The notes under the pieces were generated by a model. That model searched no databases and was not told the origin of the DNA. It saw only the letters and a program-made list of their open reading frames with translations. Made by a program: the position numbers and the translations under genes. A stretch of 64,000 nt of DNA from a virus. Within the stretch, counting starts at the first letter, position 1, and every line of letters starts with the position of its first letter. Where the stretch lies: the IMG/VR virus record IMGVR_UViG_3300027704_000015, positions 1 to 64,000 of that record; one strand, 5' to 3'. This document shows, piece after piece, positions 1-22,333 of the stretch.

Positions 1-483
1 GTAGATGAAGGTCTTTGGGCCAATATAAATGCTAAAAAGAAACGAGGTGGTAAATCAGCACCTAAAGGTTCTAAAGCGTATAAAGCAGCAAAAAAAGCTG
101 GTGGTAAGTTAGAGAAGACTAAAGAGTCAGTTATCTATAGAAATGAAGCACTTAAATTAGAAATAATTGAATCCTCTGAACCTATACTATTCCAAGAAGC
201 TGAGTACCAAGGACGTAAAGTAAAGCTTAATAAACCAATGCGTGGTGATACTAAGAAATTTAAAGTATATGTTAATACTGGTAAAAAAACTGCTGATGGT
301 GGAATTAAAGTAAAAAAAGTTAATTTTGGTCACGGTGGTACATCAGCTAAAAAGGCAGGTGAAAAGACAATGAGTATTAGGAAATCAAATCCTAAAGCAA
401 GATCTTCATTTCGAGCTAGACATAAATGTGCTACCCCAGGACCTAAAGATAAAGCTAGGTACTGGAGTTGCAGAAAATGGTAA
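1..483 (+). CDS. 5'-truncated basic modular virion protein (probable internal head protein)
   Basis: Frame 1 is open from base 1 (VDEGLWANINAKKK...FQEAEYQGRKVKLNKPMRGD...ARYWSCRKW); Lys-rich modules bounded by Glu sites. Confidence 0.6.
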   Translation, partial: VDEGLWANINAKKKRGGKSAPKGSKAYKAAKKAGGKLEKTKESVIYRNEALKLEIIESSEPILFQEAEYQGRKVKLNKPMRGDTKKFKVYVNTGKKTADGGIKVKKVNFGHGGTSAKKAGEKTMSIRKSNPKARSSFRARHKCATPGPKDKARYWSCRKW

Positions 484-875
484 TCAAGTTAAAGGATTTA
501 CTATTTGAAAGATTCGATAGACAATCTGTAGTAGATAAAGTATACCCGCAGATAGTAAAGAATTTAGGTAGAGCAAGAAGAGGTACCCCTAAAGTAGAAT
601 TTCACAGCAATATATATGTAAGGATTACAGGCATTGAAGGTATGGAAGGTGAAGCTAATCCACATGCAGAATATGATTGGGAAAACAATAAGATCTATTT
701 GTATACACCTAGGATGACTAACGAAAAAGAAATTATCAAAGGATTGTTACACGAATATACACATGCAACTCAAGATCCAAAGAAAATGGACAAGTATCGT
801 GAGTTAGGTTACAAGAAGAATCCTTACGAAATAGCAGCATCAAGAGCAGAAAAGAACTGGCGAAAGTATACATGA
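477..875 (+). CDS. Leader-bearing zincin-like metallopeptidase
   Basis: ATG 477 gives MVIKLKDLLFE leader; HEYTH (HExxH) plus downstream NPYE. Confidence 0.65.
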   Translation: MVIKLKDLLFERFDRQSVVDKVYPQIVKNLGRARRGTPKVEFHSNIYVRITGIEGMEGEANPHAEYDWENNKIYLYTPRMTNEKEIIKGLLHEYTHATQDPKKMDKYRELGYKKNPYEIAASRAEKNWRKYT

Positions 876-1486
876 TCAAATTAAAAGACATATTAACTGA
901 AGGTATGGGTGATTGTTATCAAGCAGGTGGTAGGTTAATCATGAACTTTTTTGGTGATAAAAGACATAAATTAGTGCATGGCATGGTTAATGGTCAAGGA
1001 GCATTAAAAGGAAAGCGTTATGGACACTGTTGGGTAGAGTCAAGCAATACAGTATTAGACCACTCTAACGGTAGAAAATTAGAAATACCGACAAAAGTAT
1101 ATTATGCATTAGGTAGTGTCAAACGAAATGAATGTAAATATTATACACCTGAACAAGCTGCAAAGATGATGTCAACTAAGAAGCACTGGGGTCCATGGGA
1201 GATGGCTGGAGGTGTAGTAATGGCAGAAGATATACCTGATGCAAGAGGTGAGATAGGTAAGAGACGTATAAAAATTCCATCAGGCTTTTTAAAAAATATT
1301 GATTTAGAAGAAAATTATAAGGATGGTAAGAAGAAAGGAAAAAGCCGTCCAGGTAGAGTTAAAAAATCTGGAGCAAGTTGTGATGGTTCAGTAACTTCAC
1401 TACGTGCTAAAGCAAAGAAGCATGGAGGTGAAAAAGGTAAAATGTATCACTGGTGTGCTAACATGAAAAAAGGCAAAAAGAAATAA
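872..1486 (+). CDS. Leader-bearing transglutaminase/papain-like domain plus basic C-terminal module
   Basis: MIKLKDILTE leader; GDCY...GHCWVE...VLD Cys-His-Asp pattern; Lys-rich tail after DLEE. Confidence 0.55.
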   Translation: MIKLKDILTEGMGDCYQAGGRLIMNFFGDKRHKLVHGMVNGQGALKGKRYGHCWVESSNTVLDHSNGRKLEIPTKVYYALGSVKRNECKYYTPEQAAKMMSTKKHWGPWEMAGGVVMAEDIPDARGEIGKRRIKIPSGFLKNIDLEENYKDGKKKGKSRPGRVKKSGASCDGSVTSLRAKAKKHGGEKGKMYHWCANMKKGKKK

Positions 1487-1492
1487 GAAATA

Positions 1493-1525
1493 AGTTGGTA
1501 GTCTGAGATATATTTCTTATCTTTA
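1493..1525 (+). promoter_or_regulatory. Bacteroidota-type promoter (TTG-N20-TATCTTTA)
   Basis: agTTGgtagtctgagatatatttctTATCTTTA, 8 nt before ATG 1534; one of 21 copies. Confidence 0.8.
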
Positions 1526-1533
1526 TATATAAG

Positions 1534-2052
1534 ATGATAAAACTAAAAACTATATTACGAGAAGGAAAAACTGTAAGTATCTTCGATTTCGATGATACTA
1601 TAGCTCAAAGTGATTCATGGGTATATATAACCAAAAATGGTAAGACCATTAAAAAACTAGATCCAGCTGAATTTGCGGTATATACTCCTAAAGCAGGTGA
1701 AGAGTACGATTTCAGAGACTTCGATAGAAAGCTTAGAAATCCAAGACTTATCAAAAAGAATGCTGACTTACTAAAAAAGCAATTAAAGAAGGGAGGTAGA
1801 AAGGTGACTATACTTACTGCTAGACGTTTAAAAGCTCCCATTAATCACTTCTTTAAAACAATCGGTATACAGCCTTATGTTATCACATTAGGTAGTGCTG
1901 ACCCACAGAAGAAAGCTGAGTACATAGAAAATGAGATAAAGAAAGGATATACTACTATTTATTTTATGGACGATAGTGTGAAGAACTTGAGAGCAGTTGA
2001 TGCTTTAAAACGTAAATATCCGAAAATTAAACTAATAACAAAGATAGCATAA
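1534..2052 (+). CDS. Leader-bearing HAD-superfamily phosphatase
   Basis: MIKLKTILRE leader; FDFDDT motif I, LTAR motif II, FMDDS motif IV. Confidence 0.8.
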   Translation: MIKLKTILREGKTVSIFDFDDTIAQSDSWVYITKNGKTIKKLDPAEFAVYTPKAGEEYDFRDFDRKLRNPRLIKKNADLLKKQLKKGGRKVTILTARRLKAPINHFFKTIGIQPYVITLGSADPQKKAEYIENEIKKGYTTIYFMDDSVKNLRAVDALKRKYPKIKLITKIA

Positions 2053-2053
2053 T

Positions 2054-3454
2054 ATGAAATTTAACATTAAAAACTGGCAAGACAAACACTTAATCAAGGA
2101 ATCTAAATTGAAAGAAATGGATTTCAAAGATAAAGCTGCGTTTGATAAATATCAATCTAAACTTAAAACTAAAATGCGAAAGTCTACCAAAGTAAACATT
2201 GCTGGTAAAGATACTACAGCTGGAGATGCTACTGGAGACGGAAAATCAGCAAGTAAATCAGTTGCACCTTCAACAAATGGTAAAGAGCTATCAGATTTAG
2301 TAAATAATTCTCTAGCTGATTTTGATGGAGAGGGTTATGAAGAAGAAGCAATGGAACAGCTGGATCAATTATTTCAAGATACAGGAGCTTATGGTAAAGA
2401 AGAACTAACATATGAAGATGGTATGAAAGCAATCCAGGATCTTGATAACTACCAGGATGGGGAAGGGATTCATAATGATGAGGATGAAGCTTATGATGCA
2501 AAACTAGAAATGCAGGACCAACTTCAGACGCTTTTTGATGAACCTGAAGGTGGATGGACCAATGACAATAAGGGAAATGTAAAAGCTGATGGCAGTAGTC
2601 ACGATTATGAAGAACTATCTAGAACCACAAAATCATCTCAGACAGGAAGATTTGATGACGATGACGAGGAAGGTGATGACGGTGGAGAACAGCCAGCACC
2701 AGAAGCATCGAATGAATTTGATGGTAACTATGATGGGAAGAAGTACATAGACCCGAAAGAATTAAACGCCGATAACGTAGGCGATTATGATAAGAGTTGG
2801 GCAGGTGAATTTACAGATAACACGAGTGAAACGTATAGTAAAGATACTGCAAGATTAATAATGCGAGGTTTTGCTTGGAACGATCAAGTAGATGGTAAAG
2901 ATTTTAAAGTTAATTTTGCAAAAGATGGGTCAGTTAGTATTAAAACACTAAGTGATAAGGCAAAGAGATTAACGACTGATTCAATGAACGACCCATATAA
3001 GACTGTATATGATGAGAATCCTAGTAAGTATTCAAGACTTCCAAAAAAATCTGTTACTTCAGGAGAACGCAAATACACTGGTGATTACAGTGACCGCGAG
3101 CAAGGTGAAAATTTTAGTGATGGATTTTTTGATGATGTAGAGAAGGAACTTGGACAGACATATAGTTTAGATAAAAAAAATAAAAGGAAATTAAAAAAAG
3201 ATTTATATTATAATGCAAATTCTAAATTTGCTCAAGCAGCAATTGATGCAAAACTAGCTGGTAAAGAGCCTCCAACTGCAACTGCAAGAGACTTCGCTTT
3301 GGAAATAGAAAAGACTCTTAATTATAATAACCAAGTTAAAGATGGTGTTACGCTTACATCTAAAAAAGAATCTGTTACACCTCGATCCACAAGAATACAA
3401 GAAGCAAAGATATATCGAACTATTCAAGAGCTAAAAGGGTTAGAGAAAAAGTAA
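2054..3454 (+). CDS. Acidic putative internal head protein, paralogue 1
   Basis: FNIKNWQDKH leader; N-terminal RKSTK..GK.TTAG module; C-terminus shared with next gene. Confidence 0.55.
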   Translation: MKFNIKNWQDKHLIKESKLKEMDFKDKAAFDKYQSKLKTKMRKSTKVNIAGKDTTAGDATGDGKSASKSVAPSTNGKELSDLVNNSLADFDGEGYEEEAMEQLDQLFQDTGAYGKEELTYEDGMKAIQDLDNYQDGEGIHNDEDEAYDAKLEMQDQLQTLFDEPEGGWTNDNKGNVKADGSSHDYEELSRTTKSSQTGRFDDDDEEGDDGGEQPAPEASNEFDGNYDGKKYIDPKELNADNVGDYDKSWAGEFTDNTSETYSKDTARLIMRGFAWNDQVDGKDFKVNFAKDGSVSIKTLSDKAKRLTTDSMNDPYKTVYDENPSKYSRLPKKSVTSGERKYTGDYSDREQGENFSDGFFDDVEKELGQTYSLDKKNKRKLKKDLYYNANSKFAQAAIDAKLAGKEPPTATARDFALEIEKTLNYNNQVKDGVTLTSKKESVTPRSTRIQEAKIYRTIQELKGLEKK

Positions 3455-3487
3455 TATGCTATTCAATATTAAAAACTGGCAAGACAA
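3368..3487 (+). repeat. ~120-bp direct repeat spanning gene junction (copy 1)
   Basis: gaatctgttacacctcgatccacaagaat...attaaaaactggcaaga recurs at 4782-4901. Confidence 0.9.
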
Positions 3488-4868
3488 GCACCTTATTACA
3501 GAGCTAGATTTCAAAAATCAAAAAGCTTTTCAGAAATATGATGCTGAAAATAAGATACGTAAATCAACTAAAATAACAGTTGGTGGTAAATCAACTACAG
3601 CAGGGGAACAAGGTGGTGGTACATCAAACGGTAAAAAAGCAGCTAAAGCAGGATCTAAAAAACAGCCCGTTTTTCACCACACCGATCTTACTAATTTAAG
3701 ATGGAAAACACTAAATAGAGGAACAGAAAGGGTATTCAAAAGGGAAGCTATTCCTGTGCTGAACGACATGCTAGATGATGTTATAGATAATTATGATGGT
3801 AACTTAGAAGATTATAAAGAAAACGGAATGTCTAATATGCCTCCTAATATAGAGAAAGGATTAGATGCTTTGCATAAAATATCTGCAGACGGAGGTTCTT
3901 CAACTGATGTTGATTCTTTTATGAAAACAGCTTATGATCAAATAGAGCAACATCTTGCTCCCAAAGAACCCCCATCTCCTAAAACTGCTTTTTCAATGAA
4001 AAGCGGAGCAATTGATGGAAACACTTTTGAAAAAATGGTACCTGAGCTCAAAGGATATATAACTAGACAGAGTGACGAAGGAAGGGCAGATCTTATGGCA
4101 TCTGGACTCAAATCAGCAGGTGTATACGGGAAAGGTAACGTAACACTTGCAGACGCAGAAAAAGCAGTCGATAATATATCTCTTGATGACATACAAGCTT
4201 ATCATGATAAGTACAAAATTACTAGTGAAACACCTGATGTTGCAAAAACGGAAATGAAAGATGATCTTAAAAGATTGTTTGATCAAGAACATCGACTCAA
4301 TAAGCAGTTTAAAGTAGCAGCTGGAAACCCACTTGAATTTTCTTATGCTACTGGAGAGAGGATCCCAGGTTGGGCGAATGATCCAAATGGAGGGGAATAC
4401 AAAGTAGGTCCTGAAAATTTACCTGGATATGACATTTCACAAGCTAAGATGTCTACACAAGAAGCAGAGTGGGCAAGAATGGATGCAGTAGGTGGAGAGA
4501 AAGAATATAATAAACAAGCTAAAAAGCTAAAATTCAAAGATGGTCAACTCGTGTCAAAAGTTAGTGATGAAAAAGCTGGATTCAAATTTACAGGAGGTAA
4601 TCCTGATTTTAATGGTAAAGATAATTACGGTGAGGAAGGTGAAGCTGAAATAATTACCATGGCTTCTAAAGTTGAAAAGGGTGAAATTGAGCAATCTGAA
4701 ATGGATAAAAGCTTACATCCTGAAGATCCAAGAATGTCAGATCAAGGTAGAAAAAAAGAACTCGCATCTCAAAATTATGATGAATCTGTTACACCTCGAT
4801 CCACAAGAATTCAAGAAGCAAGGATATATCGAACTATTCAAGAATTGAAAGCTTTAGAGAGAAAGTAA
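3456..4868 (+). CDS. Putative internal head protein, paralogue 2
   Basis: Same leader, N-module and C-terminal ESVTPRSTRIQEA.IYRTIQELK as 2054..3454. Confidence 0.55.
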   Translation: MLFNIKNWQDKHLITELDFKNQKAFQKYDAENKIRKSTKITVGGKSTTAGEQGGGTSNGKKAAKAGSKKQPVFHHTDLTNLRWKTLNRGTERVFKREAIPVLNDMLDDVIDNYDGNLEDYKENGMSNMPPNIEKGLDALHKISADGGSSTDVDSFMKTAYDQIEQHLAPKEPPSPKTAFSMKSGAIDGNTFEKMVPELKGYITRQSDEGRADLMASGLKSAGVYGKGNVTLADAEKAVDNISLDDIQAYHDKYKITSETPDVAKTEMKDDLKRLFDQEHRLNKQFKVAAGNPLEFSYATGERIPGWANDPNGGEYKVGPENLPGYDISQAKMSTQEAEWARMDAVGGEKEYNKQAKKLKFKDGQLVSKVSDEKAGFKFTGGNPDFNGKDNYGEEGEAEIITMASKVEKGEIEQSEMDKSLHPEDPRMSDQGRKKELASQNYDESVTPRSTRIQEARIYRTIQELKALERK

Positions 4869-4901
4869 TATGCGATTTAACATTAAAAACTGGCAAGATA
4901 A
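4782..4901 (+). repeat. ~120-bp direct repeat spanning gene junction (copy 2)
   Basis: Matches 3368-3487 at offset 1414. Confidence 0.9.
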
Positions 4902-5130
4902 AACCTTAAACGAAGCTCCAGCTGTGAGAGGTCTTGAAAAACTTAAAGATAACTACTACGGTATATCAGATGAAATATATGATATTCAGACCAATGTAAA
5001 AAATGTGTTGGGTACTATGGAAGGTGAAGAATGGGTTAAGAGTAAAAATATTGATATGTCAAAAGAAGCAAAACTGTTTAAGCAGATAGAAAAATTATTC
5101 AACCAAAGTAAATTAGGAAAGCATTTATAA
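4870..5130 (+). CDS. Small leader-bearing protein
   Basis: MRFNIKNWQDKTLNE leader. Confidence 0.55.
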   Translation: MRFNIKNWQDKTLNEAPAVRGLEKLKDNYYGISDEIYDIQTNVKNVLGTMEGEEWVKSKNIDMSKEAKLFKQIEKLFNQSKLGKHL

Positions 5131-5131
5131 T

Positions 5132-7990
5132 ATGGAAAAAATAACAGACTTACTAATGAAGTTGAATGAGATTTCCTTTAAATCAGCTGAAGAGTTGAAG
5201 AGGTATAAAGCTAAACATAAAATGCGAGATACTACTAAGGTAACTATTGGTGGTAAAGAAACGACAGCAGGGGAAGCAGAGCCAAAAGCTGATACAACAC
5301 CAAGAAAAGCAGATGGTAGTGTAGATTGGGATGCAATTGCAAATGATCCAAGTAATGTACATGCTAAAGGAACACCACAAGCTGGTGAAGATGATGGTTA
5401 CTTTAATGATGAGGATCATGAAGATGGAAGTAGAGGGACAGGAGTAACAGATGGTGAGAAGAAAGCAGAGCCATCACAAGCTCAGAAAAATGTTAAAAAA
5501 TATCCATCGATGCAAGATGCTGAATCTATAATGGATCAATTTCAGGAAGATGGTTTAGAGAAAGGTGTAGACTATGAAGAAACAACTGCATATGGAGACG
5601 ATGTACCAAACGAAATAGTAGCTTTATCTGATAAAGCTAAAGAGATAGTTGATCAGTATGATGACGAAGATGAAGATTCTGGTGATGAAGGTAGATCTAA
5701 CGATGATCCAGAACTCAGTACAAAAGAAAAATCTCCATATGGGGCTAAACAGAAAGGTATTGGTGCAGGAGGTGATAATTTAACTGGACCTACTTCTGAT
5801 GAGAATTCAGTGTCTGGAGATGCAAAAGCTGAAAAGAAAGTTCTAGAGAAGTTAAGATCTATTACAAAAGATAATGATGTTGATTTATGTTCTATAGCAG
5901 TACCTGGCACTAATCTATTTTGTGCAGGTAACAAACAGATACCTCGTGATGAAATGCCACAATTAAAATCTACAGTAGTTGCAGGTGGTAAAGCTGATGA
6001 ACTAGTTAAAGCTGGTAAGTTAGACATAGATGCTAAAACAGGTGAAGTGAATACTGAAGATCTATTCAAATCGATGCTAGAGAAGGAAGGTATCACAATG
6101 AAAGATCCTGAACCTAGACAGGTAACTTCATTGAAAGCTACTCAAAATCAATTGGTAGGATCAAAAGTTAATATGTTTGCTAAAGTTCTTGCAGGTGATC
6201 AACCTTTTGAAGGTAAAGAGTTACCAGCAGAAGATCTTAAAAAATGGCAAGATGCATTACGAGAACCTATCATAGCTTCTAAAGATGGGTATATACTAGA
6301 TGGTCATCACAGATGGGCAGCTCTTGTTCAGCATGATATAGCAAATGGTGGTACAGGGGATGTTGAAATGGATGTGAAAGAGGTTGATATGGGTGCTACT
6401 GACCTAGTAGATAAAACTAACAAATTTACTAACGATATGGGATTAGCAACTAAATCAGGTGGTAAAGCTAAAGCTACTAAACCTCAATCAAAAATGGACA
6501 AGAGAATTGCTGCTATGCGAGCTCAAGGTATGTTCGGTAAAAAAGAAAAGAAAGAAGGTATTATGAAACTTGCACAGATAATAGAAGAAGAACTTATTGC
6601 AGAACTTAAAGAACGTAATAATCCAGATGATGGAAAAGCTGCTCCTTATGGTTCAGGTTACAACAAAGTAAATGAAGCTAAAGATCGAAAATTGGACAAA
6701 CTATTTCAACGATCTAGAGCTGTTACTTCAAAAAGTGGTGAAGATAAATTATACAAACTATCACAAGACTGGGAAGACTGGAATGTTGATAACGATGATA
6801 AATACGATGATTTAGTAGATCATTTATTTGCAGCAGTTGAACTTGTACAAGACGCTGGTGTTCCTGGTAAAAACAATGTAGTAGCAGATAAGGAATATTA
6901 TAGCTATATGAAATCAGCTGACAAACATCTTAAAACATTTACTAAAGATGTTACAAAAGCAATGAAATTGCATAAAGAAGGTAAATTAAATGAAGATGGT
7001 CATATGGATATACCATCAGCTATCAGAAAATGTAAAGTTATTATAGATGGAGCTCAAGATATCATGGAGAAGTTGGGTGGAATGTCTCAAGAGCAAGATG
7101 ATTTACCATCTTGGTGGATGGACAAAGTAACTCTTGCTACTGATTATATCAATAAAGCAGACGATTATATCAACAATAGTGGTCAGATAAATGATGAAAA
7201 ATTAACGGAAGGTAAACCAATCCCAATGGATACTCCTAATGAATTTGCTTATCTAGACTTTAAAAAATATGTTTATCAGAAACGTAGTATGTTCAAGAAA
7301 GAAATGATGAAGCATGTAAGGAAATCTGACGGACAATCTGATAGCAGTAGAATGTTTAGAACACTATCAGCATTATGGTTTAAATGGGCATATCATAAAG
7401 CTAGAGACTTTAGACATATTAAAGACGATCAAAAATTTGGTAGAGCTTTAATGGTAATGATGGTTAAGGATGATTTAATATTTGATAAGAAAGCTTGGAA
7501 GAAGGATAACAATATGACTCACATTAAAGAGTCAAGAGATCCAGCATCAATTCGAAAAGAATATAAAGAACTTAAAAAACAATCTATAAGTAATCTACGA
7601 CAGGAATGGAGTAGAATGAACAAAGTAGGTAATCCTAATAGTTTAGATAAAGAAGGTTTAGTGTCAGATATATTAAGACAGAGACATGGCGGTAAACATA
7701 TAGATAAAGCTTTTGAAGGTAACGTAACTGAAGCAACAGACTTATGGAAAAAGTTTGATGAGAAGCAAAGATTATACGGTGATGGGATGGATATAGAAAA
7801 CGATCTAAAAAACATCACAGCAACCATCAAACAACTACATAAAAATATGGAACAGGAAGCTGAACCAGAAGGTGGTAAGATAGCTGATAAATATGGTAGG
7901 CAGCTCGATAAATATGAAAAGATGTATAAGAAAAGAAAATCTGATCTTAAAAAGGTTTTTTCTAAAATAGACAAATTAGAGCAATACTAA
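5132..7990 (+). CDS. Multi-module polyprotein with ParB/Srx-like domain
   Basis: LKATQ...PIIASKDGYILDGHHRWAA ParB-N motif; internal linkers EGKLNE, EKLTE, EGNVTE. Confidence 0.7.
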   Translation: MEKITDLLMKLNEISFKSAEELKRYKAKHKMRDTTKVTIGGKETTAGEAEPKADTTPRKADGSVDWDAIANDPSNVHAKGTPQAGEDDGYFNDEDHEDGSRGTGVTDGEKKAEPSQAQKNVKKYPSMQDAESIMDQFQEDGLEKGVDYEETTAYGDDVPNEIVALSDKAKEIVDQYDDEDEDSGDEGRSNDDPELSTKEKSPYGAKQKGIGAGGDNLTGPTSDENSVSGDAKAEKKVLEKLRSITKDNDVDLCSIAVPGTNLFCAGNKQIPRDEMPQLKSTVVAGGKADELVKAGKLDIDAKTGEVNTEDLFKSMLEKEGITMKDPEPRQVTSLKATQNQLVGSKVNMFAKVLAGDQPFEGKELPAEDLKKWQDALREPIIASKDGYILDGHHRWAALVQHDIANGGTGDVEMDVKEVDMGATDLVDKTNKFTNDMGLATKSGGKAKATKPQSKMDKRIAAMRAQGMFGKKEKKEGIMKLAQIIEEELIAELKERNNPDDGKAAPYGSGYNKVNEAKDRKLDKLFQRSRAVTSKSGEDKLYKLSQDWEDWNVDNDDKYDDLVDHLFAAVELVQDAGVPGKNNVVADKEYYSYMKSADKHLKTFTKDVTKAMKLHKEGKLNEDGHMDIPSAIRKCKVIIDGAQDIMEKLGGMSQEQDDLPSWWMDKVTLATDYINKADDYINNSGQINDEKLTEGKPIPMDTPNEFAYLDFKKYVYQKRSMFKKEMMKHVRKSDGQSDSSRMFRTLSALWFKWAYHKARDFRHIKDDQKFGRALMVMMVKDDLIFDKKAWKKDNNMTHIKESRDPASIRKEYKELKKQSISNLRQEWSRMNKVGNPNSLDKEGLVSDILRQRHGGKHIDKAFEGNVTEATDLWKKFDEKQRLYGDGMDIENDLKNITATIKQLHKNMEQEAEPEGGKIADKYGRQLDKYEKMYKKRKSDLKKVFSKIDKLEQY

Positions 7991-8307
7991 TGATTAAATT
8001 AAAAAATATGTTAAACGAAGCAGGTGATCAATGGACAGTAAAAGATATTCTGGTATTGCAAAAAGCTCATGAGCGAGTATTGAAATCAACCAAATCATTA
8101 CAAAAAGCTGTAGCTGCATTAGATAAATTATCTATGAAAAATGCTAACAAGCCAAATGGTAAAATGTTTACTGCTGATTCAAGCAATATGCTTAAAGCAT
8201 TCAAGTCAGGGGTAATGCCAGGTAGTAAGTTTTGGAAAGGTTGGGAGGAATTTATGAAGGGTGCTGAAGCTGCATTTCCTAATAATTGGAAAAAGACAAG
8301 ATCATGA
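7990..8307 (+). CDS. Leader-bearing hypothetical protein
   Basis: MIKLKNMLNE leader. Confidence 0.6.
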   Translation: MIKLKNMLNEAGDQWTVKDILVLQKAHERVLKSTKSLQKAVAALDKLSMKNANKPNGKMFTADSSNMLKAFKSGVMPGSKFWKGWEEFMKGAEAAFPNNWKKTRS

Positions 8308-8582
8308 TAAAGCTTAAAGATATATTAAGCGAAGCTAAAGTAAAAACTATAGATATATGGTTTGAGGAAAGCCGTGGAAGATTTTATAAAGTAATAATCA
8401 ATGGTAATAGAGCTCCAAGAGAATGGAGTAGTTGGAAAGATGCACAAGAGTCTTTAACTAAATTGCTAGGTTGGACGATTTATTTAAGATCGATAGATCA
8501 TGATGAGTTAGATAAAGCTGCTAAACAATTAAAAAAGCAAGGTATCAAACTAACTTATGATGAATCAATGGATGTATCCTAA
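8304..8582 (+). CDS. Leader-bearing hypothetical protein
   Basis: ATG 8304 (ATGA overlap with previous stop) gives MIKLKDILSE. Confidence 0.6.
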   Translation: MIKLKDILSEAKVKTIDIWFEESRGRFYKVIINGNRAPREWSSWKDAQESLTKLLGWTIYLRSIDHDELDKAAKQLKKQGIKLTYDESMDVS

Positions 8583-8608
8583 AACCTACTGTATTCCTTA
8601 AGCAACAG

Positions 8609-8625
8609 CTATTTATTATAGATAA
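8609..8625 (+). promoter_or_regulatory. Candidate late promoter CTATTTATTATAGATAA
   Basis: Identical 17-mer at 21323-21339; both intergenic and upstream of virion-type genes. Confidence 0.5.
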
Positions 8626-8695
8626 ATCCTGGTACTGTACCAGAAGAGTTCAACTAACTACCGAGTAAATACTCGATGATCTTCGGAGAAACAAG

Positions 8696-11029
8696 ATGCA
8701 AGAATCTAAGCTAAGAAACTTAGTACGTCAAGAAATTATAAACAAGCTTGATACAATTACAGAAGGTAAAGATCCTTTTGTTCCAACCTACGGAAAAGGT
8801 GATGTCGTTCATGACTGCCCAAAACACGTCCAAGAAATCAACACAGGTATTAAAGGTAAAGTAACTGGTCACACTCTTAATGAGTCTGGTGTAGTTAACT
8901 TTGTAGATGTAGATTTCGGTACAGGAAAGGTGTTTGAAAACATTCCAACAAAGAAATTAAAAATATTAGAGATGCAAGAGCATGCTCACAATATAAAAGA
9001 AGAACCAATCACAGGTGCAGGTAAAGATGAGGTTGTTACTGAAGAAGGTGATAGATGTGATTGTGCATTAGCACATCCAGGTATATCCCATAGAGCTTAT
9101 AATAGTCAACAACTTGCTGAAGAAATAAAAGTGTTAACTAGAACACCTAATCAAAATGGGTCATCATTAGGATACAGGTTGACTCAAAAACAACACAAAA
9201 AAATGTTAGCATTCTTGAAAAAGAATAAAAATCAACCAAGTGTTAAGGAACTACTTGCTACATTAAAAGATAAATACTCTGATGCAGTTGGTATTGTAAT
9301 GGATGGTAAAGTATTTTTTGTATATGCTCAATATGGTCAGTTAAGAATTGGAACAGGAGGAAAGGCTTCAGAATGGAATCAAGATGCATCAGCATCTCTT
9401 ACTAAATACATTGGTGAAGCTGTTCTACTTGAAAAAGTAACTCCAAGACAAGTATCAAAAGCATTTAGCGATATATCCAAATTATCTATGGAAATGATAG
9501 AAAATCTACAGAAATATAAAGCTGCCAAGAAATCAGGTAATGAAGCTGATATTAAAAAATATATTAAAATTGCAGGAACATTAAGTAAACAAAAGCGTTC
9601 AATGGAAGCTGCAATGGAGAAAATGATCACTCAACTAGATAAAGATGTTGAGTATATAGGTGAAGGCAAAATAAACGAAGCTCCAATGGATAAAAGATTT
9701 GCAAAAGAATGGGAAAGAAATTGTAAAGTTTTATTGACTCACATTAAACATGAGGAATCTAAAAAGAACAGAGAAAATTTTAGACTGTTAAATAATTTAA
9801 CAAATCAAGTAAAAGATGCAATGAATGTACCTGCTATGTTATCTAAGATAGTTGGAATGCAGGAAGGTAAATTAGCTGAAGCTACTATATTAGCTAATGT
9901 TTATTATATAGACTCAGAAGGATCAGCAGTGCCTGAGCACGAGCTTGCTGGAAGATCCAAAGGAGGTCCAAATTTTCTTTACATAAAAAAAGGAACAAAA
10001 GGAACATACAACGGGGACGAGTTCGAAAGTGAAGAAGGTTCGAATGTCTATATTAACAAAAGATATATAAGAGAATCTAAAACTCGATTAACTGAAGCAT
10101 TTGCATCAACTAAACTTGGTCAACTATTTGGAAAAGTATCCAAGTATAGCAATGATAAAAACTTTTTATCCGGTATGGCGAAGAGTTATGGACTTGAATG
10201 GGATAAAATTACAGACGACCAAGTAAAAGGTCCAGACACAAAATTAGATCGAAAAGGTATCGATTTAATTGTAGCTACTCAAGATGTTAATTTAGCAGCT
10301 ACAACAACGTATGATTGGACAACTTACATCAAAAAAGGTCAATTGCTAGGTGCAACCATAAAAGGTAAACGAGTATGGACAGGTAGATTTGGTGTATCAA
10401 CAGGTGCAGGTAAAAATAGAAACTTTATTGGATTAGAAAAACGTGGATACTCTAACGTAAAAAGCGTTCTATCAATTACCGGAGCAGTAGTTTATCATAT
10501 AGATCCTGAATTAAAATCACGTGGTGCAAAAGATAAAGTTGCATCAAGAGCAGAAGCTAAAGCTGGTGCAACTGCACTTATGTCTGCTAGAGATATAAAA
10601 GATAAAAACAGAAGAACGTATGAAGCAGCATTAAAGGTTCGTGTTGGAGCAGAAGGCAAAGGAGGTCTAATCAAGATGATTGAACAAGCTACCAAGTTGT
10701 ATGAAAAAGTATTGAAAGAGAAACTTAATATGCTTAAAAAAGGAATGGTTTCCACTGAACATTGGAACAATGATTCATGGAGCACAGTTTCTAGAGCACA
10801 TCAACAAATGATTAGAGATTTTCAGTACTGGATGAGAGAAGCTGCTGACCAGGAAGCACAAGCTAAAAAGGATGGGGGTAATGATGCTTCAGGAGGTGTT
10901 GATTATATGCAAAAACAAATGAATCAATATGCTTTGAATATAAAACAGGAATTTGGTAAAATGAATATCGCACTTAAAAAGATTGATAAAAGTAAAGAGT
11001 ATTCTAAGATTGAAGGTCGAGCTTATTAA
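8696..11029 (+). CDS. Multi-module polyprotein (putative internal head protein)
   Basis: Linkers ITE, VTE, LAE, EGKINE, EGKLAE, RLTE separate unrelated segments. Confidence 0.55.
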   Translation: MQESKLRNLVRQEIINKLDTITEGKDPFVPTYGKGDVVHDCPKHVQEINTGIKGKVTGHTLNESGVVNFVDVDFGTGKVFENIPTKKLKILEMQEHAHNIKEEPITGAGKDEVVTEEGDRCDCALAHPGISHRAYNSQQLAEEIKVLTRTPNQNGSSLGYRLTQKQHKKMLAFLKKNKNQPSVKELLATLKDKYSDAVGIVMDGKVFFVYAQYGQLRIGTGGKASEWNQDASASLTKYIGEAVLLEKVTPRQVSKAFSDISKLSMEMIENLQKYKAAKKSGNEADIKKYIKIAGTLSKQKRSMEAAMEKMITQLDKDVEYIGEGKINEAPMDKRFAKEWERNCKVLLTHIKHEESKKNRENFRLLNNLTNQVKDAMNVPAMLSKIVGMQEGKLAEATILANVYYIDSEGSAVPEHELAGRSKGGPNFLYIKKGTKGTYNGDEFESEEGSNVYINKRYIRESKTRLTEAFASTKLGQLFGKVSKYSNDKNFLSGMAKSYGLEWDKITDDQVKGPDTKLDRKGIDLIVATQDVNLAATTTYDWTTYIKKGQLLGATIKGKRVWTGRFGVSTGAGKNRNFIGLEKRGYSNVKSVLSITGAVVYHIDPELKSRGAKDKVASRAEAKAGATALMSARDIKDKNRRTYEAALKVRVGAEGKGGLIKMIEQATKLYEKVLKEKLNMLKKGMVSTEHWNNDSWSTVSRAHQQMIRDFQYWMREAADQEAQAKKDGGNDASGGVDYMQKQMNQYALNIKQEFGKMNIALKKIDKSKEYSKIEGRAY

Positions 11030-12987: not shown

Positions 12988-13466
12988 TAAAACTTAAAGA
13001 ACTACTCATCAAAGAACAAGAGGAAAAGAAATGTCCATCAGCAACTCAAAATCTAGTTGTTAATACAGCTAATAGAGATCGAGCAATTCAAGCTGATTTC
13101 ATTAAGTATGGTCCTTTAAATGTTGAAGAGCCTGGTGACTACTGGAAAGTAATTGCTAAGAAATGGAATACTTCAGAAGAAGCAGCTGAGAAATCAAAGT
13201 GTGCTTCATGTACTGCATTTGATGTATCACCAAGGATGTTGAAATGTATACCAGGTGAAACTTCTCAACCAGTTAAAGATGAACATGGTGATTTAGGTTA
13301 CTGTTGGATGCACCATTTCAAGTGTCACTCAGCTAGATCATGTAACACATGGGCAGCAGGTGGACCAATTAATCAAGATGAGAAATCATTTGAATGGCAA
13401 AAACGTAACTTAAAAGTAGCTTTGGATCCAGATCCAATTGATCCTACAATGTATAAGGGCGCGTAA
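12984..13466 (+). CDS. Leader-bearing Cys/His-rich (probably metal-binding) protein
   Basis: MIKLKELLIKE leader; CASC, YCWMHHFKCHSARSC. Confidence 0.6.
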   Translation: MIKLKELLIKEQEEKKCPSATQNLVVNTANRDRAIQADFIKYGPLNVEEPGDYWKVIAKKWNTSEEAAEKSKCASCTAFDVSPRMLKCIPGETSQPVKDEHGDLGYCWMHHFKCHSARSCNTWAAGGPINQDEKSFEWQKRNLKVALDPDPIDPTMYKGA

Positions 13467-14008
13467 TGATTAAACTAAAAGACCTATTAAACGAAGATAG
13501 AATGGACCAAACTAAGATGTTTGATACATCTACAGTTAACAAGATAGCTACTGATATTAAAAAGCTAGCTAACTGGAAGAAGGAACAGTATGGTAATCAA
13601 TCATTCGACTACAGTGAATTTAGATTTGGTGATGGATCAGGAGGATTTTCTTTCAAATGGGCACATGCAAGAAATTGGGGTGGACAGATTGGAGTAAGCT
13701 TCGGTAAAGATGGTAATCATAAGTATTACTCTTATAGCCACTATGATAAAAAATATACTGGAAGTACTACAACAAACAGTATGAAGCCATTCAAGTTCAA
13801 AGGTAATCCTAAGGTATGGAAAGACTTTACAAACGATCATCTTCTACAGTTTTGGAAGAAAGTTAAAGGTGAGATCAAGAAGAACGAAGCAGGTGCTAAA
13901 GCAGCATTAGATGCAGAGGCAAAAGCACAAGCAGCACACTATGGTGCAAAAGCTGATACTGGTAGGATAGGTTACGGGCTATCATCACAACCAAGAAGAG
14001 GAAGATAA
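13466..14008 (+). CDS. Leader-bearing hypothetical protein
   Basis: MIKLKDLLNE leader. Confidence 0.6.
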   Translation: MIKLKDLLNEDRMDQTKMFDTSTVNKIATDIKKLANWKKEQYGNQSFDYSEFRFGDGSGGFSFKWAHARNWGGQIGVSFGKDGNHKYYSYSHYDKKYTGSTTTNSMKPFKFKGNPKVWKDFTNDHLLQFWKKVKGEIKKNEAGAKAALDAEAKAQAAHYGAKADTGRIGYGLSSQPRRGR

Positions 14009-14292
14009 TGATTAAATTAAAAGACATAATAAACGAAGTAAATAAATCAGATGTAAAGTATGCTATGAAAATGGCATTTGATAGTATACCAGGTAACTGG
14101 CATAAAGCTCTTAAAAAAGTCGATACCCAAGGTAATACGATTAAACTAAATATGTCTTCTTATATGGGTCCTGGTAAAACACTTCAAAAGATTGTAGATG
14201 AATTTAATAGTTCAATGGGTACTAAATATAAAATTGATAAAGACTCGTTTGTAAAAGGCAGTATTACAAGTATAGAGTTACGAGAAAAATAA
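14008..14292 (+). CDS. Leader-bearing hypothetical protein
   Basis: MIKLKDIINE leader. Confidence 0.6.
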   Translation: MIKLKDIINEVNKSDVKYAMKMAFDSIPGNWHKALKKVDTQGNTIKLNMSSYMGPGKTLQKIVDEFNSSMGTKYKIDKDSFVKGSITSIELREK

Positions 14293-14304
14293 AGGGATAA
14301 ACAC

Positions 14305-14694
14305 ATGGATAAGTATATTTATAAAGCAAAGTTAGATAGAGTAGTTGATGGTGATACTGTTGACGCTATGATAGATGTAGGATTTGATATATGGGTTAAA
14401 AAAAGGATACGCTTTATGGGTGTTGATGCTTGGGAATCTAGAACAAGAGACTTGGAAGAAAAAGCAAAAGGACTTGCAGCGAAGGCAAGAGTTATAGAAT
14501 TGCTAGAGGAAACATCATCTAAACCAGGGTATTTTAGATTGAAGTCACATGGTGTTGGAAAATACGGAAGAGTTCTTGGTGAACTATTCATACAAGATGA
14601 GGAAGGAAAACAATACAATATAAATGAACAATTAAAAATCGAAGGTCATGCTTATGAATACTTCGGAGGTAAAAAACAAATATTCAAGGGATAA
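14305..14694 (+). CDS. Thermonuclease (SNase-like) family protein
   Basis: RVVDGDT, IRFMGVDAWE, GKYGRVLG motifs. Confidence 0.85.
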   Translation: MDKYIYKAKLDRVVDGDTVDAMIDVGFDIWVKKRIRFMGVDAWESRTRDLEEKAKGLAAKARVIELLEETSSKPGYFRLKSHGVGKYGRVLGELFIQDEEGKQYNINEQLKIEGHAYEYFGGKKQIFKG

Positions 14695-14697
14695 GTT

Positions 14698-20012: not shown

Positions 20013-20023
20013 AGGAAAGAACA

Positions 20024-20308: not shown

Positions 20309-20309
20309 T

Positions 20310-20660: not shown

Positions 20661-20668
20661 AGTAGACA

Positions 20669-21049
20669 ATGAATAAAGATTATACAATATGGAAATTAAT
20701 GGCAGGGTATATATTAATACTATTATTAATGTTGATATCAGTTACAGCTAATGGACAATCCCCATGTGGAAGTGATGGATTATGTGTAGTACAATTTAAT
20801 GCAGGTTTTAACGAAGGCAATAAAGTAACATGGGTAGGTAACTTAGAGGAATGTGAAACATCATTTATAGACATAGGTACAGATGCAAAAGCTTCAGGTA
20901 AATATAAGATTGTAGTTATACCTACGATACTTATATTCAATGGAGACGAAGAGATAGGTAGATATCAAGCAAATATAATGATGGTGATGGAAGCTAAACA
21001 ATCAGATATACAAGGTAAAATCGATGAAATAATCATGGATGCCTTTTAA
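20669..21049 (+). CDS. Secreted thioredoxin-fold protein lacking CxxC
   Basis: Signal peptide; VVQFNA.., KYKIVVIPTILIFNGDEEIGR (cis-Pro strand of Trx fold). Confidence 0.55.
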   Translation: MNKDYTIWKLMAGYILILLLMLISVTANGQSPCGSDGLCVVQFNAGFNEGNKVTWVGNLEECETSFIDIGTDAKASGKYKIVVIPTILIFNGDEEIGRYQANIMMVMEAKQSDIQGKIDEIIMDAF

Positions 21050-21064
21050 CTTAGGAGATATATA

Positions 21065-21289
21065 ATGAGTTGGAAAGAAATATTTAAAGATGGGAATGAT
21101 TACAATGAAAAATCGATAGTAGGTTTTTTAGCTTTTTTTGTAATGGTGATAGTGATGTTGGCTGATGTTATTACTGGATGGACAGGAGCAGATTTAGTAA
21201 TAAACGAAGCTATATACAATTCATTTGTAATGGTTGTATTAGGATGTTTTGGGATAGCTGGACTTGAAAAATTTGCAAATAGAAAGTAA
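21065..21289 (+). CDS. Small two-TM protein (holin-like candidate)
   Basis: 74 aa, two hydrophobic helices, basic C-terminus. Confidence 0.45.
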   Translation: MSWKEIFKDGNDYNEKSIVGFLAFFVMVIVMLADVITGWTGADLVINEAIYNSFVMVVLGCFGIAGLEKFANRK

Positions 21290-21322
21290 TTATATAATAG
21301 CACTGTCTTATTCATTAAACAT

Positions 21323-21339
21323 CTATTTATTATAGATAA
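21323..21339 (+). promoter_or_regulatory. Candidate late promoter CTATTTATTATAGATAA
   Basis: Identical to 8609-8625. Confidence 0.5.
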
Positions 21340-21374
21340 GCAACGTATGAATAGGTTTATTAAAGAGGAAGGAT

Positions 21375-21626
21375 ATGTCAAAATTAGCACAAATGTTAGC
21401 AAATAGTAAATCACCAACTACAATGGTTACCAACGCAGATGTCTTTGCTCAAGAAACTGGTTTAGGTTTAGGTGGTATGACATCCAAAATTACACCACTT
21501 GGTAAGGTAGGTCCATTAGCACAAGAAGGAACTGCAGGGCTATCAAGTATGAGTTCAACATATCAAAGCAGTCCAGGAGGAACAATAACACCAGCAGGTG
21601 AAAGCAGTCCTGTAAAAACAACATAA
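21375..21626 (+). CDS. Hypothetical Ser/Thr/Gly-rich protein
   Basis: ORF with GAGGAAGG upstream. Confidence 0.5.
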   Translation: MSKLAQMLANSKSPTTMVTNADVFAQETGLGLGGMTSKITPLGKVGPLAQEGTAGLSSMSSTYQSSPGGTITPAGESSPVKTT

Positions 21627-21636
21627 AGGGAAAACA

Positions 21637-21990
21637 ATGAGTAAAGAAAAATTTAGTATAAATAATTGGAGAAAGAAACGCGTACTTAAAGAAGGTGTAG
21701 GTGGAGTAGTTTCTAGAAATCCATTCAAAAAAATGCAAGGAATGTGGTTTACAGAAGCTGTAGATCATATTGATGATAAGGAAGCTGATACTGATTATGA
21801 TAATCTTGAGGATAAAGATGTTGATAATGATGGTGATCATGATGCTTCAGATAAATACCTTCATAAACGTCAAGGTAAAGTTGCTAAAGTAACTGAAAAT
21901 GAATTAGAAGAAGAAATGTCTGATGAAGAATTTAATATTCAAGAATGGCAAAAGAAGTTCCTTGATAAACGTAATTTGAAATGGGGATAA
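21637..21990 (+). CDS. Acidic leader-family protein with DxDxDGD (Ca-binding-like) motif
   Basis: FSINNWR at N-terminus and FNIQEWQKK at C-terminus; DVDNDGDHD. Confidence 0.55.
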   Translation: MSKEKFSINNWRKKRVLKEGVGGVVSRNPFKKMQGMWFTEAVDHIDDKEADTDYDNLEDKDVDNDGDHDASDKYLHKRQGKVAKVTENELEEEMSDEEFNIQEWQKKFLDKRNLKWG

Positions 21991-21991
21991 T

Positions 21992-22333
21992 ATGATAAAT
22001 CTTAAAAAATTATTAAGCGAAAATGTTTTAGGTGATCTACCTTCTTCAAAGTTAATGAAGATGAAATGGAATCCTGTAACTGAAGCTACACAAGATGCTC
22101 CGGAGCATTCAGAGTTAGAAGAAGCTGCATTCAGTTTGAATGAAGCCTTTGCTACATGGAAAATGCAATTTGCACCAATGACATTATCAGGTGTAACATT
22201 AGATCCAAAGAAAACTTTCACAGTAAAAGCTAGATCAACAGTTGAAGCAATTAAAAAGGCATCTAAAGCAGCTGGTATTACTGGTGATGGTTGGATGGCA
22301 ACTCAAACACATAAATTAGTAAAAGTAGGATAA
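21992..22333 (+). CDS. Leader-bearing hypothetical protein
   Basis: MINLKKLLSE leader; internal VTE, LEE, LNE sites. Confidence 0.6.
   Translation: MINLKKLLSENVLGDLPSSKLMKMKWNPVTEATQDAPEHSELEEAAFSLNEAFATWKMQFAPMTLSGVTLDPKKTFTVKARSTVEAIKKASKAAGITGDGWMATQTHKLVKVG

What the first reader, a model, noticed from the sequence alone, without database searches (positions are those of the whole stretch)
477..22333. Family of capsid-targeting-like leaders on unrelated cargo proteins
Seen: nine otherwise unrelated ORFs begin with a 10-11 aa M(V)I(K/N)LKx(L/I/M)(L/I)x(x)E leader (477, 872, 1534, 7990, 8304, 12984, 13466, 14008, 21992); a second class begins F(N/S)IxNW(Q/R)xK...E (2054, 3456, 4870, 21637). 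Known: T4 internal proteins carry a 10-aa capsid-targeting sequence ending in Glu that prohead protease gp21 removes. Inference: this phage uses two portable tags to load at least 13 different proteins into the head for delivery with the DNA.
Basis: partly seen in the sequence, partly recalled or inferred. Interest (0 to 1): 0.85.

Follow-up and report, generated by a model that had tools for sequence, protein, structure and literature searches.

The report
Shared head-loading leader on phage proteins
An uncultured T4-type phage of marine Bacteroidota starts at least nine unrelated proteins with the same ten-residue leader, MIKLKDLLxE. This leader looks like phage T4's capsid-targeting tag, and it also heads about 90 unrelated protein families in more than 100 other aquatic phage contigs, so it may allow packaged proteins to be predicted from sequence.

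Summary
Nine ORFs begin M(V)I(K/N)LKx(L/I/M)(L/I)x(x)E, and a tenth is cut by the contig start. Four more begin FNIKNWQDK..LxE. No copy lies elsewhere in the 80-kb contig. Conservation is at protein level and stops exactly after the Glu.

- **Spread:** the same decapeptide starts 167 proteins (92 BLAST-distinct families) in 120 IMG/VR loci. It is almost absent from 596 Gb of prokaryote genomes.
- **Protease link:** leader-bearing contigs carry the T4 gp21-type S77 prohead protease (18/35). They lack the HK97-type S78 (0/35) and rarely have ClpP (3/35).
- **Match to T4:** hydrophobic residues at 4, 7 and 8 and Glu at 10, as in T4's CTS MKTYQEFIAE, ending in gp21's L/I-x-E cut site.
- **Linkers:** three adjacent giant ORFs hold seven internal EGK(L/I)xE motifs. 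One module (DYSQRARNF...) starts right after EGKITE here and right after MIKLKxILNE in stand-alone homologues elsewhere.

My best reading (about 0.6) is a CTS-like targeting and cleavage leader. It is a new variant of a known kind.

Packaging, cleavage and ejection are inferred, not shown. The window's contig is 46% complete and lacks its head module.

The scan's note e1-6023680 had already flagged the linkers on this same stretch.

The parts
1..483 (+). ORF cut by the contig start; probably a tenth class 1 member. Its C-terminal domain matches phrog_7595.
   Evidence: The G005 homologue (191 aa) begins MKLKKILKE and aligns from its residue 14 to residue 4 here. PHROG hit.
477..875 (+). Class 1 leader MVIKLKDLLFE (477-509) on a 132-aa HExxH protein with a zincin-like fold
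   Evidence: Of the 120 listed homologues (158 hits), 89 match a strict leader pattern, all 89 with Glu at position 10. AF2 gives pLDDT 90.7 overall but about 50 for the first 10 residues. Fold hits are weak and mostly zinc metallopeptidases.
872..1486 (+). Class 1 leader MIKLKDILTE on a 204-aa protein
   Evidence: Leaderless homologues start MAGDCY / MAGKGDCY, exactly where the leader ends here (GMGDCY).
1534..2052 (+). Class 1 leader MIKLKTILRE on a HAD-type phosphatase-like protein
   Evidence: Weak Pfam and PHROG matches start at residue 9-10. The leaderless homologue L047 starts MGRILRVFDFDDT; the tagged homologue L044 starts MIKLKDLLLE+KKLRVFDFDDT.
2054..3454 (+). Class 2 leader MKFNIKNWQDKHLIKE on a 466-aa charged protein
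   Evidence: It shares an N-terminal domain with 3456 and 5132 and a C-terminal tail with 3456. The same family occurs in 7 viral contigs.
3456..4868 (+). Class 2 leader MLFNIKNWQDKHLITE on a 470-aa protein
4870..5130 (+). Class 2 leader MRFNIKNWQDKTLNE on an 86-aa protein that is unrelated downstream of the leader
5132..7990 (+). 952-aa multi-module ORF that starts MEKITDLLMKLNE and holds one internal EGKLNE
   Evidence: Residues 207-453 match stand-alone proteins that start MIKLKQLINE or MIKLKDLLKE in other contigs.
7990..8307 (+). Class 1 leader MIKLKNMLNE on a 105-aa protein
8304..8582 (+). Class 1 leader MIKLKDILSE on a 92-aa protein
8696..11029 (+). 777-aa multi-module ORF with EGKINE and EGKLAE linkers
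   Evidence: Residues 455-772 match L080_11941 (starts MIKLKDILKE+SKVSHLITE) and G005 66876. Residues 152-246 match the G005 head-module protein at 75661.
11029..12987 (+). 652-aa multi-module ORF with four EGK(I/L)TE linkers, their Glu at residues 200, 291, 338 and 415
   Evidence: The module that begins DYSQRARNF right after EGKITE begins right after MIKLKxILNE in P0153, P0160, P0183, P0190 and P0218.
12984..13466 (+). Class 1 leader MIKLKELLIKE on a 160-aa Cys-rich protein
   Evidence: Homologues carry other leaders: MKLKHLALE, and MDNFNLRKYLAEGKLYE.
13466..14008 (+). Class 1 leader MIKLKDLLNE on a 180-aa protein
   Evidence: It is 70% identical to a G005 protein that starts MIKLKDILNE.
14008..14292 (+). 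Class 1 leader MIKLKDIINE on a 94-aa protein
21637..21990 (+). Class 2 variant MSKEKFSINNWRKKRVLKE, with a second copy (FNIQEWQKKFL) near the C-terminus
   Evidence: It has weak similarity to the G005 388-aa gene that directly follows the S77 protease.
21992..22333 (+). Class 1 leader MINLKKLLSE on a 113-aa protein
   Evidence: The N-terminal ~55 residues are 42% identical (E 5e-6 to 5e-7) to G005 75661 (MKLKDILKE...LPSSKLKKMRWNPV), which lies two genes after the S77 protease in the head module.
60946..61608 (+). ClpP-family protease. It is the only protease on the contig and probably not the one that acts on the leaders.
   Evidence: Pfam CLP_protease E 4.7e-28. ClpP is found in only 3 of 35 leader-bearing contigs, against 18 of 35 for S77. 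In G005 it lies far from the head module.

Best explanation
The decapeptide M-I-K-L-K-(D/E)-(L/I)-(L/I)-x-E is a portable N-terminal leader that works like T4's capsid-targeting sequence.

Proposed mechanism:
1. The leader attaches otherwise unrelated proteins to the scaffold core of the assembling prohead.
2. The phage's gp21-type (S77) prohead protease then removes it by cutting after the Glu of the (L/I)-x-E site.
3. The mature protein is left inside the head.
4. The three neighbouring giant ORFs are polyproteins. The same protease cuts them at internal EGK(L/I)xE linkers into modules that other phages encode as separate leader-tagged genes.
5. Class 2 (FNIKNWQDK.L.E) ends in the same kind of site. 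It probably copies the core-binding KWxxxGLLE motif of the capsid protein's own propeptide.

Shown here:
- The leader exists and ends sharply at the Glu.
- Conservation is at protein level.
- It is portable across about 92 cargo families.
- It is essentially restricted to viruses.
- It is associated with S77-protease phages.
- The leader end and the linker end fall at the same boundary of a shared module.

Inferred: binding to the core, cleavage, retention in the head, and ejection into the host.
For: 1. Architecture. T4 ipII and ipIII start MKTYQEFIAE|A. The review PMC9026906 says gp21 cuts after L/I-X-E, that CTS residues 4 and 7 target, and that residues 8 and 10 direct processing. Here residues 4, 7 and 8 are hydrophobic and residue 10 is Glu.

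2. Unbiased conservation. In 33 MIKLK ORFs that were not forced by the scan pattern, position 7 is L/I in 33/33, position 8 is hydrophobic in 33/33, and position 10 is E in 24/33 (background 6%). Nothing is conserved after position 10.

3. Portability. 167 leader proteins in 120 viral loci fall into 92 BLAST clusters. Leaderless homologues begin exactly after the leader.

4. Protease association. S77 is found in 18/35 leader contigs of 40 kb or more. For the 26 fragments, summed completeness predicts about 8 hits if every genome has one copy, and 11 were seen. S78 is in 0/35 and ClpP in 3/35. The complete relative G005 has TerL, portal, S77 and gp23-type MCP.

5. Position in head modules. In G003 and G030 a leader gene lies within about 1 kb of the protease gene, in G011 about 1.5 kb away, and in G005 two genes downstream.

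6. Boundary equivalence. The DYSQRARNF module follows EGKITE| in the window, MIKLKxILNE| in five stand-alone proteins, and other leaders or EGKVTE| elsewhere. EGK[LI]xE occurs 7 times, only in the three giant ORFs.

7. Structure. In the AF2 model of the 477 protein the leader is a low-confidence extension outside the fold.

8. Virus specificity. Only 39 matches occur in 596 Gb of prokaryote genomes. About half are at starts of substantial ORFs (80 aa or more), most of those on MAG contigs and several matching the viral cargo families.
Against: - No S77 protease, capsid or portal gene lies on the window's own contig, which is 46% complete.
- G002 is rated 100% complete, carries two leaders, and gave no S77 hit.
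- Most leader genes lie far from the head module. In Mel-JY01 they sit among replication genes. T4's ip genes are also dispersed.
- No proteomic or N-terminal data exist for any leader-bearing phage. The two papers I looked for on cultured carriers were not in the library.
- Sequence identity to T4's CTS is only 2 of 10 (M1 and E10), so homology is unproven.
- L/I-x-E is a short motif, at about 1 per 100 residues genome-wide.
- The cultured relatives immuto, HTVC008M, Melnitz and C48C1 lack the exact leader.
Confidence: 0.6

Rival explanations
1. The leaders and linkers are S77 cleavage sites, but the tagged proteins are mainly prohead core or scaffold parts, or zymogens. They are cut up and expelled during maturation, as T4 gp22, gp67 and gp68 are. 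They are not cargo delivered to the host.
For: T4 gp22, gp67, gp68 and gp21 also begin with short L/I-x-E-ended N-termini: MLKEQLIAE, MEGLIE, MLLIPE and MNEPQLLIE. The class 2 proteins at 2054 and 3456 are charged, low-complexity and scaffold-like. The 21637 and 21992 ORFs show short, weak similarity to the two genes that follow the protease in the G005 head module.
Against: Many tagged proteins look like folded enzymes: zincin-like, HAD-like and a P-loop kinase-like family. About 92 unrelated families is far more than a scaffold needs. Cargo turnover between phages matches the pattern of T4's internal proteins (PMC3012670).
Confidence: 0.17
2. The leader is a recognition tag for some other partner and has nothing to do with the head. 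The partner could be a chaperone, a ClpXP-type degradation system (the phage has its own ClpP), or a localisation factor.
For: The window encodes a ClpP. Most leader genes are not next to head genes. Nothing direct shows packaging.
Against: ClpP is present in only 3/35 leader contigs, against 18/35 for S77. A degradation or chaperone tag does not explain the invariant Glu at the leader's end. It also does not explain the identical boundary with internal EGK(L/I)xE linkers, which calls for endoproteolysis. The leader has no hydrophobic core, so it is not a Sec, Tat or T9SS signal.
Confidence: 0.1
3. The repeat is a nucleic-acid feature: a translation-start context favoured in AT-rich genomes, or a microhomology cassette for shuffling genes. 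It has no role as a peptide.
For: The leader DNA is A/T-rich and 74% identical between copies, with exact shared runs of up to 15 nt. Most genes overlap the previous stop (ATGA or TAATG), so they are translationally coupled.
Against: Third codon positions vary freely (95 synonymous changes) while the residues are kept. Upstream DNA is not conserved (29%). The same peptide is kept in more than 100 contigs with different codons. It is almost absent from AT-rich bacterial genomes. Recombination at the cassette may well occur, but as a consequence, as was proposed for T4's CTS.
Confidence: 0.04

Closest known systems
[quoted passage not shown]
   Same: Both are 10-residue N-terminal peptides shared by otherwise unrelated proteins. 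Both have hydrophobic residues at 4, 7 and 8, an acidic residue at 6, and Glu at 10 within an L/I-x-E site. The phages share a gp20/gp21/gp23-type head module. Cargo varies between phages while the tag is kept.
   Different: Only 2 of 10 residues are identical to MKTYQEFIAE. Here there are 10 or more tagged genes in tandem, against 3 in T4. The same decapeptide is conserved across more than 100 distant marine and freshwater contigs and about 92 cargo families. It is combined with polyproteins that carry internal linkers. Hosts are Bacteroidota or cyanobacteria, not enterobacteria. No experiment has been done.
Propeptides of ejection and inner-body proteins of giant phages phiKZ, 201phi2-1 and SPN3US (S80 protease, a relative of gp21)
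   Same: Many head proteins are processed after Glu in a three-residue motif. Paralogues have identical N-termini (SPN3US gp53 and gp54). Propeptides hold multiple cleavage sites (PMC5694885).
   Different: Those proteases need a small P3 residue (A/S/G-x-E). Here P3 is L/I, as in T4. Their propeptides are long and not a single portable decapeptide.
Cargo-loading peptides of encapsulins
   Same: A short portable peptide directs unrelated enzymes to the interior of an HK97-fold shell.
   Different: Those peptides are usually C-terminal, bind the shell itself, are not cleaved, and involve no protease. This is an analogy only.
Polyprotein processing in RNA viruses and in T4 core proteins (gp22 cut at many L/I-x-E sites)
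   Same: Several functional modules are made as one chain and separated at repeated short protease sites. T4 gp22 has 16 L/I-x-E sequences.
   Different: Here the modules are distinct domains that exist as separate genes in other phages. The linker is a longer, stereotyped EGK(L/I)xE.

Membership tests
T4-type capsid-targeting sequence (CTS) | A short N-terminal peptide shared by otherwise unrelated proteins of one phage | tested here: met
   Nine (probably ten) ORFs carry it. With the leaders removed, BLAST shows no similarity among the class 1 cargos themselves.
T4-type capsid-targeting sequence (CTS) | The peptide ends in the gp21 site L/I-x-E, with hydrophobic residues at positions 4 and 7 | tested here: met
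   All nine window leaders fit. In the unbiased set, position 7 is L/I in 33/33, position 8 is hydrophobic in 33/33, and E is at position 10 in 24/33. The T4 rule comes from PMC9026906.
T4-type capsid-targeting sequence (CTS) | The phage encodes a gp21-family (S77) prohead protease and a gp22/gp23-type head | tested here: inconclusive
   It is absent from the window's 46%-complete contig. It is present in the relative G005 and in 18/35 leader contigs; S78 is in 0/35.
T4-type capsid-targeting sequence (CTS) | The peptide is sufficient to load a protein into the prohead core | not testable with these tools
   This needs a leader-GFP packaging test.
T4-type capsid-targeting sequence (CTS) | The peptide is removed by the protease during maturation | not testable with these tools
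   Support is indirect only. Leaderless homologues and polyprotein modules start at the residue after the Glu, and the leader is disordered in the AF2 model.
T4-type capsid-targeting sequence (CTS) | Sequence homology to MKTYQEFIAE | tested here: inconclusive
   It has the same length and pattern, but only 2 identical residues (M1, E10). The peptide is too short to decide.
phiKZ/SPN3US-type propeptides (S80 protease) | Cleavage motif with a small P3 residue (A/S/G-x-E) | tested here: not met
   P3 is L/I in all nine window leaders and in all seven linkers.
Secretion signals (Sec, Tat, lipoprotein, T9SS) | A hydrophobic core of 10 or more residues, a twin-arginine motif, or a C-terminal sorting domain | tested here: not met
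   The leader is a charged, amphipathic 10-mer. True signal peptides and T9SS domains do occur in the window, but on other genes (14698, 18891).

The most novel reading that the evidence does not exclude
A large clade of aquatic T4-type phages, infecting Bacteroidota, cyanobacteria and others, shares a sequence-readable 'zip code' system. It consists of the MIKLKDLLxE leader, at least two further leader types, and EGK(L/I)xE linkers in polyproteins. All are read by the S77 prohead protease. The system loads dozens of unrelated enzymes per phage, and hundreds of families overall, into the head for injection. Class 2 leaders gain entry by mimicking the capsid protein propeptide's KWxxxGLLE motif. 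If so, the injected proteome of uncultured phages could be listed from sequence alone.
Probability: 0.45. Interest if true: 0.8.

Novelty: new variant of a known kind. Interest (0 to 1): 0.66.

Why it matters
Proteins that phages inject with their DNA act before any phage gene is expressed. Known examples are T4's IPI*, which blocks a restriction enzyme, and Alt, which modifies RNA polymerase. They are prime candidates for anti-defence functions. Finding them normally needs virion proteomics of cultured phages.

A conserved ten-residue leader tied to the S77 protease would mark such proteins directly in metagenomes. This sample alone gives about 92 unrelated families, including a zincin-like peptidase and a HAD-type phosphatase.

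It would also extend T4's packaging principle to distant aquatic phages, and it would show a dsDNA phage using linker-separated polyproteins. It could supply a ready-made tag for loading foreign proteins into phages of Bacteroidota or cyanobacteria.

In practice the leader also flags phage contigs wrongly binned into bacterial MAGs.

Tried and rejected
- **Nucleotide search:** megablast of 24 kb against GenBank phages found no match.
- **Cargo annotation:** Pfam and PHROG left almost all cargo proteins unannotated. The ESM Atlas gave only viral hypothetical clusters, with one weak Peptidase_M78 lead for the 477 protein.
- **Late promoters:** I searched for T4-type late promoters (TATAAATA) upstream of leader genes. 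None marks them; the motif sits before other genes. Expression timing stays unknown.
- **Promoter/terminator scan:** the sigma-70 and terminator scan of 1-15000 gave nothing above shuffled controls.
- **Literature:** searches for the motif strings (MIKLKD, IKLKDLL, NFNLRK, FNIKNW) and for Mel-JY01 returned no papers.
- **Cultured phages:** the exact leader is absent from immuto, HTVC008M, Melnitz and C48C1. It is present only in Mel-JY01, so no published virion proteome could be used.
- **ClpP as the leader's protease:** rejected on co-occurrence.
- **Class 2 as a widely portable tag:** rejected.
- **DNA-level repeat:** rejected.


Full report
**What is there**

The window is the first 64 kb of a 79,962-bp IMG/VR viral contig (G000). 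CheckV rates it 46% complete. All genes lie on the + strand. Baseplate genes and T9SS-type secreted proteins, together with the cultured relative Flavobacterium phage vB_FspM_immuto, point to a myophage of Bacteroidota.

ORF listing and direct reading confirm every coordinate in the finding. Nine ORFs start M(V)I(K/N)LKx(L/I/M)(L/I)x(x)E. Four start with F(N/S)I(K/N)NW(Q/R).K..L.E. A six-frame scan of the whole contig finds no further real copy.

The genes form a nearly gap-free array from 1 to 14,292, most of them overlapping the previous stop codon. The last two members lie at 21,637-22,333. The first ORF is cut by the contig end. Its homologue in the relative G005 begins MKLKKILKE about ten residues before the aligned part, so a tenth member is likely.

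**Peptide, not DNA**

- The nine leader DNAs are 74% identical, while the 30 nt on either side are 29% identical.
- Within the first eight codons there are 95 synonymous and 66 non-synonymous pairwise differences.
- Nothing upstream is conserved.
- With the leaders removed, the class 1 proteins show no BLAST similarity to each other.
- An AlphaFold2 model of the 477 protein, built on 51 homologues, has mean pLDDT 90.7 but only about 50 for the first ten residues. The leader is a floppy extension in front of a small zincin-like fold.

**The leader is widespread and virus-specific**

Nearly all hits lie at ORF starts, on very different proteins. In those loci, 167 leader proteins fall into 92 BLAST clusters.

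I then took 33 further MIKLK ORFs that the scan pattern had not forced:

| Position | Residue | Count |
|---|---|---|
| 7 | L or I | 33/33 |
| 8 | hydrophobic | 33/33 |
| 10 | Glu | 24/33 (background 6%) |
| after 10 | no conservation | - |

The same pattern gave only 39 matches in 596 Gb of prokaryote genomes. About half are at starts of substantial ORFs (80 aa or more), most of those on MAG contigs and several matching the viral cargo families, so they are probably mis-binned phage. No paper in the library prints the motif.

**The leader is a portable add-on**

- Homologues of the 872 protein start MAGDCY with no leader, exactly where the leader ends here.
- HAD homologues exist both with the leader (MIKLKDLLLE+KKLRVFDFDDT) and without it (MGRILRVFDFDDT).
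- Homologues of the 12984 protein carry other leaders.
- By contrast, most of the 120 listed homologues of the 477 protein keep the leader: 89 match a strict leader pattern, all 89 with Glu at position 10, and the rest carry close variants or differently called starts.

**Link to the T4-type head**

Leader-bearing contigs of 40 kb or more were searched for three protease families:

| Protease family | Contigs with a hit |
|---|---|
| Peptidase_S77 (T4 gp21) | 18/35 |
| Peptidase_S78 (HK97 type) | 0/35 |
| ClpP | 3/35 |

For the 26 fragmentary contigs, summed completeness predicts about 8 S77 hits if every genome has one copy, and 11 were seen.

G005 is a complete 145-kb relative, with 45-70% protein identity to many G000 genes. 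It has terminase, portal, S77 protease, scaffold and gp23-type capsid genes at 68.9-80 kb. In G005 the second gene after the protease starts MKLKDILKE, and its first ~55 residues are 42% identical to the window's 21992 ORF (weak, E about 1e-6).

In G003 and G030 a MIKLKDIL.E gene lies within about 1 kb of the protease gene, and in G011 about 1.5 kb away. Elsewhere leader genes are tens of kb away. In the cultured Microcystis phage Mel-JY01 they lie among replication genes. T4's own ip genes are similarly dispersed.

**Comparison with T4, from the T4 record itself**

IPII and IPIII start MKTYQEFIAE|A. gp22, gp67, gp68 and gp21 start with short peptides that end in L/I-x-E. gp23 starts MTIKTKAELLNKWKPLLE|G.

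The review PMC9026906 states three things:
- gp21 cuts after L/I-X-E.
- The first ten residues of IPIII suffice for targeting.
- Residues 4 and 7 matter for targeting, and residues 8 and 10 for processing.

The window's leader has hydrophobic residues at 4, 7 and 8 and Glu at 10, so the architecture is the same. Sequence identity is low, at 2 of 10.

**Polyproteins**

All seven lie in the three adjacent giant ORFs at 5132, 8696 and 11029.

Segments of these ORFs match stand-alone leader-tagged proteins in other contigs. The clearest case is the module that begins DYSQRARNF:
- It follows EGKITE in the window.
- It follows MIKLK.ILNE in five stand-alone proteins.
- It follows MKLKNILTE, other leaders, or EGKVTE in yet others.

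The leader's Glu and the linker's Glu therefore mark the same boundary of the mature domain. This is what a common endoprotease site predicts, and it is hard to explain with a degradation tag or a translation signal.

**Class 2**

Exact FNIKNWQ N-termini occur in only seven other contigs, all from the 2054/3456 family. In the window the motif heads three different downstream sequences.

Related N-termini occur in immuto. MENNFDIHKWQAKFLKE belongs to the gene right after the protease, and MADNFNLRSFLTENKL to another gene. Another occurs on a homologue of the 12984 protein (MDNFNLRKYLAEGKLYE).

Capsid protein propeptides of leader-bearing phages share KWxxxGLLE|G. Class 2 resembles this in its W-to-E spacing. 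I treat that as a lead, not a result.

**Verdict**

The best reading, at about 0.6, is a CTS-like targeting-and-cleavage leader read by an S77 prohead protease, with linker-separated polyproteins using the same site.

The main rival accepts the cleavage but holds that the products are expelled core parts rather than delivered cargo (about 0.17). Other-partner tags (0.10) and nucleic-acid explanations (0.04) fit the data poorly.

Main weaknesses:
- The head module of this phage itself is missing.
- One complete leader-bearing genome (G002) has no S77 hit.
- There is no proteomic evidence at all.

The principle is known from T4. What appears undescribed is this particular, far more widely conserved leader, its scale, and its pairing with polyproteins. 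I therefore rate it a new variant of a known kind.

Noticed in passing
window 8696-8770 and 11029-11080; proteins P0145, P0146, P0164, P0197, P0236-P0240: There appears to be a third N-terminal leader type, roughly (K/N)(K/R).(L/I)..II.EE(V/I/L)...L. It heads many homologues of the polyprotein modules. It resembles the start of the 8696 ORF (MQESKLRNLVRQEIINKL) and G005 genes at 66876 and 67884.
   Followed up: partly
L142 (Microcystis phage Mel-JY01, PP395634.1 60276-62760); also L024, L081, L089, L092, L023, L121: A leader-tagged family with a conserved (W/Y)H(F/L)T motif just after the leader recurs in many contigs. It forms four tandem paralogues in the cultured phage Mel-JY01, one of which (62733) is only an 18-codon stub. 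Its function was not examined.
   Followed up: no
window 2054-4868 and 5132-5290: The 2054 and 3456 proteins share an 89%-identical 28-residue C-terminal tail. They also share, together with the 5132 ORF, a domain of about 40 residues (FK..AF.KY....K.R.STK....GGK.TTAGE) right after the leader. Their middles are unrelated.
   Followed up: partly
window 28351, 35116, 38822, 39072, 48782: The T4 late-promoter-like motif TATAAATAAAG lies 22-54 nt upstream of five genes in the middle of the window. None of these is a leader gene.
   Followed up: no
window 1-483 (C-terminal domain, phrog_7595): This domain also occurs in pelagiphage and roseophage podoviruses, in the siphophage Kolga and in Nitrosopumilaceae spindle-shaped viruses. 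None of these was found to encode an S77 protease, so the domain itself is not head-specific. T4-type phages have added the leader to it.
   Followed up: partly
L199/L219 (NHHP01000001.1, 'Pelagibacter sp. TMED166', 71.9 kb), L196, L200, L225, L218, L223: Contigs in bacterial MAGs carry two or three MIKLKDLL.E genes from the same families as the viral contigs. They are probably phage contigs binned into MAGs by mistake.
   Followed up: partly
G002 (IMGVR_UViG_3300042387_000948, 207 kb): This genome is rated 100% complete and has two leader genes, but gave no Peptidase_S77, S78 or ClpP hit. It may hold a divergent prohead protease.
   Followed up: no
window 14305-14694: A staphylococcal-nuclease homologue sits directly after the leader array but has no leader. 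T4 workers packaged that same enzyme type artificially using the CTS.
   Followed up: no
window 8627-8645: A perfect 8-bp-stem inverted repeat lies in the only sizeable gap (8582-8696) of the leader gene array.
   Followed up: no
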